A DNA stretch of 64,000 nt from a plasmid (GCF_055900595.2 NZ_JBVWEU010000002.1); one strand, 5' to 3'. Shown: positions 55,182-63,452, numbered from the stretch's first letter. The notes: a model not told the origin generated them from the sequence alone. A program made the numbers and translations.

Positions 55182-55514
55182 TTACTCATAGTCTATTTCA
55201 TCAGTATAAAACCGCGATAACTCAGAAATAACCTTATTGATATAATTTAATTTCTTAAGACAGGTAGTGAAGTAACCGTTATTTATATTGTGTCTTTCAC
55301 AAATAACTTTTCTGGAAGCACCCTCAACAATATAATCATACAGAGCATTGATAATTCGTTGACTGTGTATGGACGAAATATCTATTAATAACCAGAATTG
55401 CTCCTCAGGTACTTTACCGGCTTCCAGAACACAATATGGACAACGCGAGTTCCTCTTTTTGAACGCCGATGTTATTATGTATGAATTATCCGTTTTCATT
55501 ATCTTGTCCTCCAT
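55182..55514 (-). CDS. PapB/FaeB-family fimbrial transcriptional regulator (110 aa)
   Basis: Core matches recalled PapB (..LLI.ISSIHS.R.I.A..DY.V.G.SRK..CE...NNGYF.T.L..L..). Confidence 0.75.
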   Translation of the reverse strand: MEDKIMKTDNSYIITSAFKKRNSRCPYCVLEAGKVPEEQFWLLIDISSIHSQRIINALYDYIVEGASRKVICERHNINNGYFTTCLKKLNYINKVISELSRFYTDEIDYE

Positions 55515-55621
55515 CTAATCATTTATAATGATAATCATATAGTCATATATAAAACAATACAATGAGGTTTAATAAAGACCTTACATAGAAATAATTCTTT
55601 TAGTATCAGATTCCTCCTGGT

Positions 55622-55885
55622 TTATATTTTATTTATATTAAATGATTTGATGCTATCAACCGCATATAATATCGCTCGTCGCTCCATCTCTTCTAAACTC
55701 ATACTTCGAAAATCACCTTCGCCCTCTGAATAAAGAACACATTCAAATGTTGCCTCACCATTCAGCTCAAGTTGAACAACAACCTTATCAATAAGGTGAC
55801 GATCGTAGCTTACATTTAAGTTTACTATCCGATGCCCATACATTTTACACCTGATCCTTATATTAAAATAGTTAGCTCCCTCCAA
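55622..55885 (-). CDS. Hypothetical protein (87 aa) between fimbrial structural genes and the PapB-like regulator
   Basis: ORF track. AT-rich. No family recognised. Confidence 0.4.
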   Translation of the reverse strand: MEGANYFNIRIRCKMYGHRIVNLNVSYDRHLIDKVVVQLELNGEATFECVLYSEGEGDFRSMSLEEMERRAILYAVDSIKSFNINKI

Positions 55886-56165
55886 ACAGACCCGAGGGAA
55901 TAAATATCACTTACATATTTGCAGCTTTGTCATATATTTTTTATAAACTCCGTCATTCAAAATACTTTTTATGTGCAGATCCATTCTGTTATTTTCCCTT
56001 CAGTTACCAGGTAATTCAACAGGTGAAATGTATTGTTTAATCAATATTACTCAAAAAAGAGACATTAAGGAAAAACACAAACACTTCATCATTATTACTT
56101 ATAATACCACTGATATGTTATAACATAACCAGGAATACTCTTAATACAAACCTGGGGGTCAGATT

Positions 56166-57176
56166 TCAGAGAACATCCATTGACAGTACAGCAGATCCTT
56201 CAAAGAGCCCGGCAACAGGCGAGTCGCTTTTAAAATTCACAGATAAAGGAACATCTGTTGTTCCTCTTATAGCTTTTACAGTCTTCTGGCTTTTATCATT
56301 ATCAAACGACAACGTACAATAACCAGGACCACACTTTGTTTTATTTATCTGTCCGTCCTGCATATCTGCAGCTCTTATTGAAAAAAGAATATTCGCCGGA
56401 GCATTACATACTACAGATAAACTGGCATTTTTATTTATACCACCTCGCGCCTCATCAGGGGTTATTCTGTCACCAATATTAATACTGAGATACCTTGATG
56501 TAAGTTCACATTTGGATGTTATATGTATGGTAACATTATTTGTATTAACCGGACTGAATGATTTAATGGCACCGGCATATTCTGGCCAGCCTCCTCCTGA
56601 TTGACCAGAGTATCTGCCTTTATTTTCTTCATAGGCAACCTTTAATGGTAATTGTAATGTATACACGCCTGGCCATGCTGTTCCTCTGTCAATCTCAATT
56701 TTTATATTTTCAATATTTGTCTGTGTAAAGTTATATCTTTCTCCGACACGGTTACATCTTAAGATATTCTTCCATGTGAAGTATTGAGGTGGCGTTACTA
56801 CAGTTTTCACTCCAGGCTCCTGACTACCTGCAAGTTCAAGATTAGTTACTATTCTGTATTTAAGACCTTCCTTTGTGTTTTGCCATTCATCAGGATACTG
56901 GAGCCAGTATCTGTAAACCCCGGAAACCGATGTAAAGCTGGGCATATCTTCTTCATACTGTCTTATTGCTGTCGAATATCCTCCAGCCTGTAAATTTAAA
57001 GAATAAACTGCAGAAGAGGAACCATCCATACTTGCATTAAGTGATGCCTTCGGCAAATTTTCATTTGCCCATAAAATATTACAGAACTTTTGAGAATAGG
57101 CATCCGGTGAGAACTGAATAAATAAAAAAAACAAAAAAACAATATATTTTCTTCTCATACCCCCCCCATGACTCAA
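56166..57176 (-). CDS. Putative fimbrial tip adhesin (336 aa, two-domain)
   Basis: Last structural gene of the chaperone-usher operon. Signal peptide. Same size as PapG but sequence not PapG-like. Confidence 0.6.
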   Translation of the reverse strand: MSHGGGMRRKYIVFLFFLFIQFSPDAYSQKFCNILWANENLPKASLNASMDGSSSAVYSLNLQAGGYSTAIRQYEEDMPSFTSVSGVYRYWLQYPDEWQNTKEGLKYRIVTNLELAGSQEPGVKTVVTPPQYFTWKNILRCNRVGERYNFTQTNIENIKIEIDRGTAWPGVYTLQLPLKVAYEENKGRYSGQSGGGWPEYAGAIKSFSPVNTNNVTIHITSKCELTSRYLSINIGDRITPDEARGGINKNASLSVVCNAPANILFSIRAADMQDGQINKTKCGPGYCTLSFDNDKSQKTVKAIRGTTDVPLSVNFKSDSPVAGLFEGSAVLSMDVL

Positions 57177-57185
57177 CCTCTTCAG

Positions 57186-61589: not shown

Positions 61590-61709
61590 TATATGCAGCC
61601 GATTTAATACAAAAACACTTTGAGGGGCGCAACTAACTCTCTTCAACATTCAGGAATGTATTATTAACACTGTCGCTGATAGCAGTGAGCCCGGCTACTC
61701 CGGTTGTAT

Positions 61710-62297
61710 TTATTCGTAGTCCAGTTTAAAACGCAATGCAGCGTAGTAATCGCCAGCCTTTAATGGATAACCATTTCTGACAATGCGAAGAGAATAGTCA
61801 AGCCCGTCTTCATTCCCCCTGAGAATTAAAGGTGGCATGCTTTTTCCTGCTCTCGCCGGATATCCGTAATTATCCATAATCTGCAGATTTATACCTTCAG
61901 CCTGACCTGTCAGCGAGAATTTGTCCGGTGTTTCTCCGGGAATGCCATCAAAAGTCACACGCACCCGGGTTGCCGTATAGACCTGCTTTCCTGCACCTGC
62001 AAGCTCACAGTTGCGTAGCCGTAGCCGGAATTTTTTCTCGGGACCGGCAGGGCTGTTCTGTAAGTCCCTGAGTGGCGTGGTTCCCATATCAATTTCCTGC
62101 CAGGCATCCTCCATAGCCAGCGTACAGGCAGGAGCGATAACCTGCCCTTTAAAGCTGGCCCGCCCATCCCACCAGACGTGTTCTTCTCCCCAGTACTCGG
62201 GCAAAGTCATCCCCGGTGGTGGAAAAGAACCTGATGGCAGGGCCTGAGCCATCGCACACCAGAAAAACGGTACCGAAATGATCATGCGCCAGAACAT
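61710..62297 (-). CDS. Pilin-like subunit (195 aa), PapH-like position (possible terminator/anchor subunit)
   Basis: Between major subunit and usher. Size equal to PapH when started at MFWRMIISVPFFWCAMAQA. C-terminal ...KLDYE pilin motif. Confidence 0.55.
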   Translation of the reverse strand: MFWRMIISVPFFWCAMAQALPSGSFPPPGMTLPEYWGEEHVWWDGRASFKGQVIAPACTLAMEDAWQEIDMGTTPLRDLQNSPAGPEKKFRLRLRNCELAGAGKQVYTATRVRVTFDGIPGETPDKFSLTGQAEGINLQIMDNYGYPARAGKSMPPLILRGNEDGLDYSLRIVRNGYPLKAGDYYAALRFKLDYE

Positions 62298-62383
62298 GCG
62301 GTATTCCTTACTTCTCACTGGCAATTGTACGGGGACATATTCCCCGCACATATCAGATATCTCAAACAGAATTGCCCAACATA

Positions 62384-62911
62384 TTACTCGTAGGCCAGAT
62401 TGAAGTTAGCAACAGCGGTAAAATCGCCTTCTTTCAGGGTGCCACCAGTAGCTTTTTTAACCCAAGTACTGTAGCGCAGGGTATTATCACCTTCTTTAAC
62501 TTTTGTCGCGGAACCTGCTGTACCATCAAATGAAACCAGGCTGCCATTCGCAGCTGAGACAACTATTGCAGTCCCTGTATCACCAGTAGTACCTAACTCC
62601 TGATTCTGTCCATTGATTGTTGTACCAGTAAAAGAAACTTTCACACCATTGGTCAGTTTTCCGATTTCTGTGGCATCGCAGTTAACTAACTTGATATCCA
62701 GATCTTTTTTTACGGAAATTCCGTCTGCATTCAAATGTGCTTTAGAAATCTGGCCGAAATTAATTGTCTGATCTGCTGATTCTTGTGCAATACCACAAGG
62801 AGCATCAATTACTGTACCTTTGAAGTTAATAACGCCCTGTCCCTGATTAGCAGCATTAACGCCAAATGAAACAGTAGAAGCAAGCATGGTTGCAATAATA
62901 ACTTTATTCAT
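62384..62911 (-). CDS. Major fimbrial subunit (175 aa)
   Basis: Signal peptide, Cys pair, C-terminal beta-strand motif NFNLAYE. First gene after a ~400-bp AT-rich promoter region. Confidence 0.8.
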   Translation of the reverse strand: MNKVIIATMLASTVSFGVNAANQGQGVINFKGTVIDAPCGIAQESADQTINFGQISKAHLNADGISVKKDLDIKLVNCDATEIGKLTNGVKVSFTGTTINGQNQELGTTGDTGTAIVVSAANGSLVSFDGTAGSATKVKEGDNTLRYSTWVKKATGGTLKEGDFTAVANFNLAYE

Positions 62912-63452
62912 ATAACAAAACCCTGAGTTGAAAAAAATACATTTTATTGAGTGGCAAAAATTCTGTCACTCAACAAAAAGTACTTTTATGTCTCATAAAA
63001 GAATGTGAATAGTTAATTATCACACGTTAAGAAGTTCGTATATTCTGCTTCACATCAAAACTCAGCTTTTCTTATTTTTGGTTAATTTTATTCAGAATTA
63101 AAAAAATCACAATAATAATGATTTATCATCGCAATTCATTTTTACAGAATAAATAACCAGAAGCAAGTTATAACAAAGAGATATTTTCTATATTTTTCGA
63201 TTTATTGCGAATAAAACACCTATAATAATAGATATTCTCAGAGTAAAAAAATATGACAATCTTCTGTTTTGCATCAAAAATTGCAATAAAAGACCAAAAA
63301 ATACAAAATATATTTTTGTATAAAATTTGTTTTATTATTTCTTTATTTTCTGTTCCTGCGCCATTGTGTTTTGGGAGCCAGCAGGGGGCACAGTGAAACC
63401 GATATTGTACAGAAAGTACAGTAATTACAGTGTGTTACCTGCAGAGAGGCTA

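What the first reader, a model, noticed from the sequence alone, without database searches (positions are those of the whole stretch)
55182..63330. Pap-like chaperone-usher operon with atypical regulatory layout and a non-PapG adhesin
The gene order (major subunit, 195-aa PapH-sized subunit, 836-aa usher, chaperone, two minor subunits, 336-aa adhesin) mirrors the pap operon, but the adhesin does not resemble PapG as I recall it, so receptor specificity is probably different. The PapB-like regulator lies downstream of the structural genes rather than upstream, and the ~400-bp AT-rich promoter region (62912-63330) shows no GATC sites by eye, arguing against the classical Dam/Lrp phase switch.
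Basis: partly seen in the sequence, partly recalled or inferred. Interest (0 to 1): 0.5.

Follow-up and report, generated by a model that had tools for sequence, protein, structure and literature searches.

The report
Plasmid Pix/Sfp-type fimbrial operon variant
This is an intact, uncharacterised variant of the known Pix/Sfp/PL group of Pap-related E. coli fimbriae on an IncF plasmid, with a new adhesin allele and its PapB-type regulator placed after the structural genes instead of before them; it is of moderate interest to specialists and is not a new kind of system.

Summary
Window 55182-63480 (minus strand) holds an intact chaperone-usher operon, A-H-C-D-J-F-G, followed by a PapB-family gene. 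There is no GATC in the AT-rich 5' region.

The window is 100% identical to E. coli IncF plasmid pMTY1886_IncF. The operon belongs to the Pix/Sfp/PL subgroup of pi fimbriae:
- H, usher and chaperone are 95-98% identical to Pix of UPEC 536.
- The major pilin (66-73%) and the tip (J 41-52%, F 38-39%, G 51-52%) are new alleles. The breakpoint is near 58034, inside J.

The 3' position of the regulator is real. It is conserved in sister plasmid clusters that carry unrelated adhesins, whereas Pix and PL have the regulator at the 5' end. Lack of PapI and of paired GATC sites is shared by Pix, Sfp and PL, so it is a trait of the subgroup.

A conserved sense-strand RNA hairpin lies just 5' of the pilin gene and resembles the papA mRNA stabiliser.

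The full tip-plus-regulator segment is found in 29 of 5426 complete E. coli genomes. I found no paper describing this variant. I rate it a new variant of a known kind, of modest interest.

The parts
62912..63480 (-). AT-rich (28.6% G+C) 5' regulatory region specific to this plasmid lineage. It has no GATC and no PapB or PapI gene or remnant.
   Evidence: Composition and GATC/Lrp scan. No similarity to the sfp or plf upstream regions. No PapB remnant by tblastn. Found only on plasmids, in 41 of 5426 complete E. coli genomes. 89% identical in the sister clusters.
63085..63112 (-). Candidate sigma-70 promoter (TTGTGA, 16-nt spacer, TAAAAT) in the most conserved upstream block. It would give a leader of about 165 nt that includes the hairpin.
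   Evidence: Consensus scan, 9 of 12. The block is nearly invariant in a six-lineage alignment. Not verified experimentally.
62933..62987 (-). Conserved sense-strand RNA hairpin (about 24 pairs) directly 5' of the Shine-Dalgarno sequence of A. Proposed 5' stabiliser of the pilin mRNA. A second promoter-like match (62941-62969) lies inside it.
   Evidence: MFE -25.7 kcal/mol for the 96-nt context, z -3.86. No main-stem pair is broken in 5 sequences, and changes are G-U or compensatory. Sense-strand energy is kept at -17 to -22 kcal/mol in 5 distinct variants, while antisense energy falls to -6 to -11 in the diverged variants. Analogy to the papA 5' stem-loop (PMC5927463).
62384..62911 (-). A, major pilin (175 aa). 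A new allele: 73% identical to SfpA, 68% to PlfA, 66% to PixA.
   Evidence: Fimbrial-family hits in NCBIfam.
62326..62350 (-). G+C-rich 10-bp stem-loop just after the A stop codon, without a U-tract. Possible 3' stabiliser or attenuator of the A transcript.
   Evidence: Fold. No canonical intrinsic terminator in this spacer. The functional analogy to pap is an inference.
61710..62297 (-). H, PapH-like terminator/anchor subunit (195 aa), 95% identical to PixH.
59079..61589 (-). C, outer-membrane usher (836 aa): 98% identical to PixC, 95% to PlfC, 91% to SfpC.
58279..59010 (-). D, periplasmic chaperone (243 aa): 98% identical to PixD, 95% to SfpD.
57727..58242 (-). J, PapJ-family assembly protein (171 aa from the ATG at 58242). 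The mosaic breakpoint lies inside it, near 58034.
   Evidence: The N-terminal part is near-identical to PixJ and the rest has diverged. DNA identity to Pix, Sfp and Plf ends at 58021-58046. Pfam PapJ on the 90%-identical L017 homologue.
57186..57686 (-). F, adaptor pilin linking the adhesin to the rod (166 aa): 38-39% identical to SfpF and PixF.
56166..57158 (-). G, two-domain tip adhesin (330 aa) of the SfpG/PixG family, with the PapG fold.
55500..56165 (-). 666-bp non-coding spacer between G and B (31.7% G+C), with no canonical terminator and no consensus promoter. It contains the non-conserved orf87.
55182..55499 (-). PapB/FocB-family transcriptional regulator (105 aa; GGAGGA ribosome-binding site upstream of the ATG at 55499), located 3' of the structural genes.
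   Evidence: Pfam PapB E 1.8e-32. Aligns in register with the FocB crystal-structure sequence 3m8j, E 3.6e-23. 62%-identical orthologue at the same position in sister clusters L010-L013. Start codon and ribosome-binding site conserved in L014.

Best explanation
The locus is an intact chaperone-usher operon for a Pix/Sfp-type pi fimbria. It sits on an IncFIA/FIB/FIC conjugative plasmid, directly beside the RepFIB origin.

Shown:
- A Pix-like assembly core (H terminator, C usher, D chaperone; 95-98% identical to Pix) is combined with a new major-pilin allele.
- From mid-J onward there is a diverged tip segment (rest of J, F adaptor, G adhesin).
- There are no PapE or PapK fibrillum genes.
- G is a two-domain adhesin of the SfpG/PixG family, and its lectin domain has the PapG fold at 11% identity.
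- There is no PapI, no 5' PapB and no paired GATC arrangement.

Inferred assembly: the chaperone delivers subunits to the usher, which builds the order G, F, many copies of A, then H. This gives a rod with a short tip, as proposed for Sfp and Pix.

Inferred receptor: the adhesin binds a glycan other than Gal-alpha-1,4-Gal. Pix does not bind Gal-Gal, and PlfG variants bind quite different glycans.

Inferred regulation:
- Expression does not use the Pap Dam/Lrp/PapI methylation switch.
- Transcription starts in the 29% G+C upstream region, probably at the conserved TTGTGA-16-TAAAAT site near 63085-63112.
- The leader carries a conserved hairpin that protects the pilin mRNA 5' end, as in papA.
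- The 3' PapB-family gene is expressed at least partly by read-through from the operon, because no terminator or consensus promoter was found in the G-B spacer. Its product would then feed back on the operon or signal to other adhesin loci.

The confidence of 0.75 applies to the identification and assembly model, which on their own I would put above 0.9. The regulatory steps taken together deserve only about 0.3-0.4.
For: - Identity of the plasmid and the gene set.
- Protein identities to Sfp, Plf and Pix.
- Sliding DNA identity with breakpoints near 62400 and 58034.
- Adhesin family, model and fold.
- PapB-family assignment and conserved 3' synteny in the diverged sister clusters L010-L014.
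- Absence of a GATC/Lrp switch here and in Pix, Plf and Sfp.
- Conserved hairpin with strand-specific, pair-preserving substitutions.
- papA precedent.
- No terminator or promoter consensus between G and B.
- All genes intact in 29 complete genomes at 96-100% identity.
- Functional data on the relatives (mannose-resistant haemagglutination by Sfp and Pix, no Gal-Gal binding by Pix, PlfG glycan specificity).
Against: - There are no expression or binding data for this variant.
- The transcription start is unknown. A better-scoring promoter-like match (10 of 12) lies inside the hairpin. If that promoter is used, the hairpin is not transcribed and the palindrome would be a DNA feature.
- The covariation evidence rests on only 4-5 independent sequence variants.
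- The G-B spacer is 666 bp of untranslated sequence, so Rho-dependent termination or a non-consensus promoter for B cannot be excluded.
- The regulator might serve the downstream co-oriented genes rather than the fimbrial operon.
- Several relatives are disrupted by IS elements (IS1 in the promoter region plus truncation in ETEC B7A-type plasmids, IS5 in the usher gene of S56). This suggests selection for the locus is not universal.
Confidence: 0.75

Rival explanations
1. The PapB-family gene is not part of the fimbrial system. It would be an independent plasmid regulator, like TosR or the orphan PapB-family genes of pUTI89-type and pMB2 plasmids. It would control the co-oriented downstream genes: the DUF883/YqjE/YqjK-like cluster here, plus an autotransporter in the sister plasmids.
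For: - B is followed on the same strand by the DUF883/YqjE/YqjK-like genes in every lineage, and by a 1098-aa autotransporter in L010-L013.
- Non-fimbrial PapB-family regulators exist (review PMC12388093).
- Many IncF plasmids carry orphan PapB-family genes.
- B is separated from G by 666 bp.
Against: - B shares the low G+C content of the tip genes (33.6%), unlike the 42-48% downstream region.
- B is itself 566 bp away from the DUF883 gene.
- B has diverged (62% aa) roughly as much as the tip segment, whereas the downstream flank is 82% identical at the DNA level.
- Every occurrence found is next to a Pix-like fimbrial operon that lacks a 5' PapB.
- No second PapB-family gene is present in the window or the first 8 kb of the plasmid record.
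Confidence: 0.2
2. The operon is phase-variable through a Pap-like Dam/Lrp mechanism at non-canonical sites, for example the GATC sites in the G-B spacer (55801, 55853, 55978) that could control the regulator gene.
For: Three GATC sites lie in the G-B spacer. A review states that Pix expression is phase-variable (PMC12388093).
Against: - The spacings are 52, 125 and 177 bp, not about 102 bp.
- None of the sites sits in a CGATCTTT-type box.
- No PapI or FaeA-family gene is present.
- Lrp consensus matches are not enriched in the 5' region.
Confidence: 0.05
3. The conserved palindrome at 62933-62987 is a DNA operator or core promoter element (-35 GTGACA, -10 TAAAAT), not an RNA hairpin. The pilin transcript would then start about 25 nt upstream of the ATG.
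For: It holds the best promoter-like match in the region, 10 of 12. The -10 hexamer is invariant across lineages.
Against: - Substitutions in the -35 region weaken the hexamer (GTGTCA, GCGACA) but are matched by changes on the opposite arm that keep RNA pairing, including G-U states that are mismatches in DNA.
- Hairpin stability is kept only on the sense strand.
Confidence: 0.3
4. The cluster is a silent or decaying passenger on the plasmid with no current function.
For: Copies disrupted by IS elements and truncated copies occur. Sfp is not expressed under standard laboratory conditions.
Against: - All eight genes are intact here and in about 29 complete genomes from humans, poultry, cattle, pigeons and primates, at 96-100% identity.
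- The diverged lineages (L014, L017, L010-L013) also keep intact reading frames.
- The leader hairpin shows pair-preserving substitutions.
Confidence: 0.1

Closest known systems
Pix fimbriae (pixBAHCDJFG plus a 3' EAL gene; UPEC X2194 and strain 536 PAI V)
   Same: H, C and D are 95-98% identical in protein, and DNA is 96-100% identical from about 62400 to 58034. It is a seven-gene structural set without PapE or PapK. The adhesin is of the same family (51%). There is no PapI and no GATC pair upstream.
   Different: Pix is chromosomal, at pheV. It has pixB 5' of pixA and an EAL-domain gene 3' of pixG. In the window A is 66%, J 52%, F 39%, G 51% and B 44% identical to the Pix proteins, and the promoter region shows no convincing similarity (a weak match, reached by 6 of 300 shuffles).
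Sfp fimbriae (sfpAHCDJFG, plasmid pSFO157 of sorbitol-fermenting EHEC O157:H-)
   Same: Same seven-gene order with no 5' regulator. Also on an IncF plasmid near RepFIB. A 73%, H 80%, C 91%, D 95% and G 52% identical.
   Different: Sfp has no PapB-family gene at either end in the annotated region. Its tip proteins are only 38-52% identical, its upstream region is unrelated, and its position relative to repB differs.
PL (P-like) fimbriae (plfBAHCDJKEFG, pEC598 and other IncF plasmids)
   Same: Plasmid-borne, next to RepFIB. C 95% and D 90% identical. No PapI. The adhesin is variable between strains.
   Different: PL has K and E fibrillum genes and a 5' plfB, and it lies on the integrase side of repB. 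PlfG is only 23% identical to the window adhesin, which is not among the accessions listed for the five PlfG classes.
P fimbriae (papIBAHCDJKEFG)
   Same: Same gene-order logic and the same PapB-family regulator type. The adhesin has the PapG fold in both domains. The pilin gene is flanked by a 5' hairpin and a 3' stem-loop, as for papA mRNA.
   Different: The window has no PapI, no GATC-proximal/distal pair, no PapE or PapK, and no PapG sequence signature. Its regulator is 3' rather than 5'.
Regulators encoded at the 3' end of fimbrial operons (PapX/SfaX/FocX, MrpJ, SfaY and the EAL gene after pixG)
   Same: A regulatory gene sits after the adhesin gene, where it can be expressed together with the fimbrial genes and report the ON state to other loci. 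That PapX and MrpJ act this way is from established knowledge. The EAL gene after pixG is seen.
   Different: Those regulators are MarR-type, XRE-type or EAL-domain proteins. Here the 3' gene is a PapB-family protein, which in characterised systems is the 5' activator or autoregulator. Co-transcription has not been shown.

Membership tests
pi-clade chaperone-usher fimbriae (usher-based classification of Nuccio and Baumler) | Usher groups with PapC, PixC and SfpC. | tested here: met
   C is 98% identical to PixC, 95% to PlfC and 91% to SfpC. Those ushers are placed in the pi clade in bioRxiv 10.1101/2021.07.20.453171. No tree was built here.
pi-clade chaperone-usher fimbriae | Complete assembly set: major pilin, PapH-like terminator, usher, chaperone, PapJ-like protein, adaptor and two-domain adhesin. 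| tested here: met
   All are intact.
P fimbriae (Pap) | PapG adhesin (Pfam PapG_N and PapG_C). | tested here: not met
   No PapG Pfam hit. Only 11% identity to the PapG lectin domain, although the fold matches.
P fimbriae (Pap) | PapI plus a 5' PapB, with two GATC sites about 102 bp apart inside Lrp sites. | tested here: not met
   No PapI or FaeA-family gene, no 5' PapB, and no GATC pair at 95-110 bp.
P fimbriae (Pap) | PapE and PapK fibrillum subunits. | tested here: not met
   Only F lies between J and G. PlfK and PlfE match only F and the major pilin A, so no separate E or K gene is present.
Pix fimbriae | pixHCD assembly core. | tested here: met
   95%, 98% and 98% protein identity. 96-100% DNA identity.
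Pix fimbriae | PixA pilin and PixG adhesin alleles, pixB at the 5' end and an EAL gene at the 3' end. | tested here: not met
   A 66% and G 51% identical. B is at the 3' end and only 44% identical. There is no EAL gene.
Sfp fimbriae | sfpAHCDJFG layout on an IncF plasmid without a 5' regulator. | tested here: met
Sfp fimbriae | SfpA and SfpG identity (the sfpA marker gene). | tested here: not met
   A 73% and G 52% identical. DNA identity in A is about 74%.
PL fimbriae | Ten-gene plfBAHCDJKEFG cluster with a PlfG class I-V adhesin (44-77% identity between classes). | tested here: not met
   No K or E genes. G is 23% identical to PlfG. Class definition.
SfpG/PixG adhesin family | Full-length homology to SfpG and PixG. 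| tested here: met
   51-52% identity over 330 aa, E 1e-130. About 36 clusters at 90% identity in the large protein collection.
SfpG/PixG adhesin family | Mannose-resistant haemagglutination and the receptor. | not testable with these tools
   Only literature on the relatives is available.
PapB/FocB family of transcriptional regulators | PapB domain (PF03333). | tested here: met
   E 1.8e-32. Aligned in register to FocB 3m8j residues 23-102, E 3.6e-23.
PapB/FocB family of transcriptional regulators | Conserved Arg and Cys of the DNA-binding segment (PapB R61 and C65; their importance is recalled from Xia and Uhlin 1999, not checked here). | tested here: met
   The SRKxxCE motif is conserved (wB R63 and C67) in the alignment.
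PapB/FocB family of transcriptional regulators | Binds and regulates its own fimbrial promoter. | not testable with these tools
   Needs gel-shift and reporter assays.
papA-type mRNA 5' stabilising stem-loop | Stable hairpin at or near the 5' end of the pilin mRNA, conserved at the RNA level. | tested here: inconclusive
   The hairpin is present and its pairing is conserved on the sense strand. The transcript ends are unknown, and only 4-5 independent variants were available.

The most novel reading that the evidence does not exclude
In this plasmid lineage, the segment from mid-J through F, G and the 3' PapB-family gene would behave as an exchangeable adhesin-plus-regulator module. It would be swapped by recombination between the conserved 5' third of J and the conserved downstream flank. 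The 3' PapB-family protein would be made only when the operon is transcribed, and would act as an output or feedback regulator, for example on its own AT-rich promoter, on type 1 fimbriae or on other adhesin loci. That would be a regulatory logic not described for pi fimbriae, in which PapB-type proteins are 5' activators.
Probability: 0.2. Interest if true: 0.55.

Novelty: new variant of a known kind. Interest (0 to 1): 0.3.

Why it matters
IncF virulence and colicin plasmids move between human, poultry and livestock E. coli. A plasmid-borne fimbria with a new adhesin allele is therefore a candidate determinant of host or tissue tropism, as was recently shown for the related PL fimbriae (Lewis b, Lewis y and H antigen binding by PlfG class II).

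The locus shows that the Pix/Sfp/PL group is a mosaic. A nearly invariant assembly core is combined with variable pilin and tip segments. Virulence-gene screens that score pixC, pixH or sfpC will therefore pick up this cluster without revealing that it carries a different adhesin.

The 3' PapB-family gene offers a simple test of whether PapB-type regulators can work as operon-coupled output regulators. The adhesin family is currently mislabelled 'nuclease PIN' in public annotation and should be corrected.

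Tried and rejected
1. Relocated pixB by circular permutation of a Pix cluster. Rejected as unsupported:
- B is only 44% identical to PixB and at least as close to PefB-type regulators (49-52%).
- The G-B spacer shows no similarity to the pix or plf regulatory regions.
- The A-upstream region gives only a weak match to the pixB upstream region (59.7% over 181 nt), reached by 6 of 300 dinucleotide shuffles.

2. orf87 (55622-55885) as a small accessory gene. Rejected: it is broken in L014, has no Pfam or NCBIfam hit, and has no counterpart in the sister loci.

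3. An invertible promoter element. No flanking inverted repeats stand out above the AT-rich background. The region maps as a single collinear piece in nearly all listed genomes (two pieces only where IS1 is inserted), with no inverted copy seen.

4. A remnant of a PapI/FaeA or YuaE gene in the G-B spacer, as seen in the odd cluster L020. No similarity was found.

5. Known RNA families. No meaningful Rfam match in 54000-64000.

6. An intrinsic terminator after A, G or B. None was found with a hairpin-plus-U-tract scan.

7. The low G+C of the tip as a sign of recent foreign origin. Rejected as uninformative, because Pix and Sfp show the same G+C profile along the operon.

8. The word-indexed protein search with B returned only two clusters. 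The wider picture came from tblastn on plasmids.

9. Literature searches for a description of this exact variant found none. The library does not cover most subscription journals. The original Pix (Lugering 2003) and Sfp (Brunder 2001) papers were not read directly.

Full report
**Where the window comes from.** Bases 55000-63600 are 100% identical to E. coli plasmids AP026455.1 and NZ_CP128971.1 (pMTY1886_IncF; 126,291 bp; IncFIA/FIB/FIC; conjugative). Window position 64000 is the last base of that circular record. The RepFIB repB gene starts at record position 1. The rest of the window is an ordinary F-type transfer region, leading region and sopAB partition genes.

**Checking the observation.** ORF listing and RefSeq annotation agree on a minus-strand cluster:

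| Gene | Coordinates | Length | Role |
|---|---|---|---|
| A | 62384-62911 | 175 aa | major pilin |
| H | 61710-62297 | 195 aa | PapH-like terminator/anchor |
| C | 59079-61589 | 836 aa | usher |
| D | 58279-59010 | 243 aa | chaperone |
| J | 57727-58242 | 171 aa | PapJ-family assembly protein |
| F | 57186-57686 | 166 aa | adaptor pilin |
| G | 56166-57158 | 330 aa | adhesin |
| B | 55182-55499 | 105 aa | PapB-family regulator |

- B has Pfam PapB at E 1.8e-32. It aligns in register with the FocB crystal-structure sequence at E 3.6e-23.
- The 5' region has 29% G+C and no GATC between 62774 and 63646.
- About 1.5 GATC sites would be expected in that stretch, so their absence alone is weak evidence. 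More telling, no two GATC sites lie 95-110 bp apart anywhere in 54700-64000, there is no CGATCTTT box, and the Lrp consensus is not enriched.
- The 87-codon ORF between G and B is not conserved in a 92%-identical relative and has no family match, so it is probably not a gene.

**What the cluster is.** Protein identities to the characterised relatives:

| Protein | Sfp (pSFO157) | PL (pEC598) | Pix (UPEC 536) |
|---|---|---|---|
| A | 73% | 68% | 66% |
| H | 80% | 79% | 95% |
| C | 91% | 95% | 98% |
| D | 95% | 90% | 98% |
| J | 41% | 42% | 52% |
| F | 38% | 36% | 39% |
| G | 52% | 23% | 51% |
| B | none present | 40% | 44% |

- A sliding DNA comparison shows 96-100% identity to a Pix-type cluster from about 62400 to 58034. 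Identity drops to about 50-65% in the body of A and in everything 3' of mid-J.
- Comparisons with Sfp, Plf, and about 240 chromosomal Pix-type J genes all lose similarity at 58021-58046.
- The operon is therefore a mosaic: a Pix assembly core with a new pilin allele and a new tip.
- The G+C profile along the operon (low in A, the tip and B; high in H, C and D) is the same in Pix and Sfp, so it does not mark recent import.
- Like Sfp and Pix, and unlike Pap and PL, the cluster has no E or K fibrillum genes. The inferred fibre is G, then F, then the A rod, then H.

**The adhesin.**
- G has no PapG Pfam domain. A family profile hits only the PapG pilin domain, at E 0.013.
- G belongs to a diversified family of about 36 clusters at 90% identity, which includes SfpG and PixG. 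Public annotation often misnames this family 'nuclease PIN'.
- An AlphaFold model built on 29 homologues has pLDDT 87.
- The lectin domain is 54-59% identical to those of SfpG and PixG.
- According to the PL-fimbria preprint, Sfp and Pix give mannose-resistant haemagglutination of human erythrocytes and Pix does not bind Gal-Gal. PlfG class II binds Fuc-alpha-1,2-Gal glycans, while class I bound nothing on the same array. The receptor of the window adhesin is unknown.

**The regulatory layout.**
- Chromosomal Pix-type clusters carry the PapB-family gene 5' of A and an EAL-domain gene 3' of G. PL has plfB at the 5' end. Sfp has neither.
- In the window there is no PapB remnant upstream. The 569-bp upstream region is unrelated to the sfp and plf upstream regions. 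It occurs only on plasmids, in 41 of 5426 complete E. coli genomes.
- The 3' position of B is not an accident of one plasmid. A 92%-identical cluster elsewhere has the same layout (L014).
- Sister clusters L010-L013 have the same RepFIB junction and promoter region (89% DNA identity), Pix-like J and F (80-83%), an unrelated 313-317-aa adhesin (23% identical to G), and then a 106-aa PapB-family gene 62% identical to B. That gene is followed by the same DUF883 gene.
- B is roughly equidistant (40-52%) from PixB, PlfB, FocB and PefB-type regulators. This argues against a simple relocation of pixB.
- Pix, PL and Sfp upstream regions also lack paired GATC sites, and PL and Pix lack PapI. Freedom from the Dam/Lrp/PapI switch is therefore a trait of the subgroup.

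**A conserved leader hairpin.**
- The most conserved part of the upstream region is the roughly 75 bp before the A start codon. It contains a 27-nt-arm palindrome at 62933-62987.
- Folded as sense RNA, it forms a hairpin of about 24 pairs. The MFE is -25.7 kcal/mol for the 96-nt context, with z -3.86.
- Across five distinct sequence variants, none of the main-stem pairs is broken in the five-sequence alignment. The changes are U-A to U-G to C-G, A-U to G-U, and G-C to G-U. In a further variant (L017), a bulge becomes a pair.
- Sense-strand stability stays at -17 to -22 kcal/mol, whereas the antisense hairpin falls to -6 to -11 in the diverged variants. This points to selection on the RNA, although only 4-5 lineages are independent.
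- A G+C-rich stem-loop without a U-tract follows the A stop codon.
- A candidate promoter in a nearly invariant block (63085-63112) would place the hairpin in a leader of about 165 nt. A competing promoter-like match lies inside the hairpin.

**Is B co-transcribed?** No consensus promoter on the sense strand and no hairpin-plus-U-tract terminator was found in the 666-bp G-B spacer. Read-through from the operon is therefore plausible but unproven. Regulators encoded at the 3' end of fimbrial operons are known (PapX, MrpJ, and the EAL gene of Pix and Sfa). A PapB-family protein in that position has not, to my knowledge, been described.

**Prevalence and literature.**
- The full tip-plus-B segment occurs in 29 of 5426 complete E. 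coli genomes. Plasmids carrying the whole locus come from humans, chickens, quail, pigeons, cattle and a baboon.
- Truncated or IS-disrupted copies occur in ETEC B7A-type 52-kb plasmids and in strain S56.
- Full-text searches found the PL-fimbria papers and a PapB-family review, but no description of this variant.

**Verdict.** However, the system is a mosaic member of the already described Pix/Sfp/PL group, not a new kind of fimbria. The new elements are the pilin and adhesin alleles, the lineage-specific promoter with its conserved leader hairpin, and the 3' PapB-family gene. The identification is secure. The regulatory mechanism is inference.

Noticed in passing
window 63647-63696 (plus 63739): Five GATC sites spaced 11-13 bp apart, inside repeats of the type TGGATC, lie about 300 bp before the RepFIB repB gene, which starts just past the window end. 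This is probably the methylation-sensitive part of the RepFIB origin, as in P1 oriR (recalled from memory). It is not a fimbrial switch.
   Followed up: partly
window 1-64000: GATC is about two-fold depleted across the whole window: 135 sites against 253 +/- 14 in dinucleotide-preserving shuffles, and every shuffle had more. This may reflect restriction-site avoidance by the conjugative plasmid.
   Followed up: no
window 50567-52804: A colicin Ia gene (50924-52804, minus strand) and its immunity gene (about 50567-50902, plus strand) lie directly downstream of the fimbrial/yqj-like block.
   Followed up: no
window 53149-54615: A plasmid copy of a yqjD/yqjE/yqjK-like stress-gene set (DUF883 protein, a 117-aa secreted protein, a 'phage holin family' YqjE-like protein and a YqjK-like protein) is co-oriented with the PapB-family gene. 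It is conserved next to that gene in all lineages examined.
   Followed up: partly
window 56166-57158 and its homologues (P0001-P0036): The SfpG/PixG adhesin family is widely annotated as 'nuclease PIN' in NCBI records. This is an annotation error that has propagated.
   Followed up: partly
L020:5822-12129 (E. coli GCA_012908445.1, 315-kb contig): A related cluster has an unusual tip region: a PlfK-like subunit, a 446-aa FKBP-domain protein, F, a PapB-family gene, a YuaE-like gene, an SfpG/PixG-type adhesin (40% identical to the window adhesin), a FaeA/PapI-family gene, a second adhesin-like gene, and a DsbA-like gene. Regulators embedded between two adhesin genes might control which adhesin is expressed.
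   Followed up: partly
L010:8061-9014, L011:6782-7723: Sister plasmid clusters share the promoter, the core and the 3' PapB-family gene with the window. They carry an unrelated 313-317-aa adhesin (23% identity). That adhesin-plus-regulator segment was found in no complete RefSeq E. coli genome.
   Followed up: partly
H21-H27 plasmids (for example CP006000.1, E. coli B7A); L015:10899-13461; L017:7806-9262: Copies of the cluster are disrupted by insertion sequences: IS1 in the promoter region with loss of the tip in 52-kb ETEC plasmids, IS5 in the usher gene of strain S56, and an IS110-type element about 210 bp after G in L017.
   Followed up: partly
window 55622-55885: An 87-codon ORF in the G-B spacer looks like a gene but is interrupted in a 92%-identical relative and has no family match.
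   Followed up: yes
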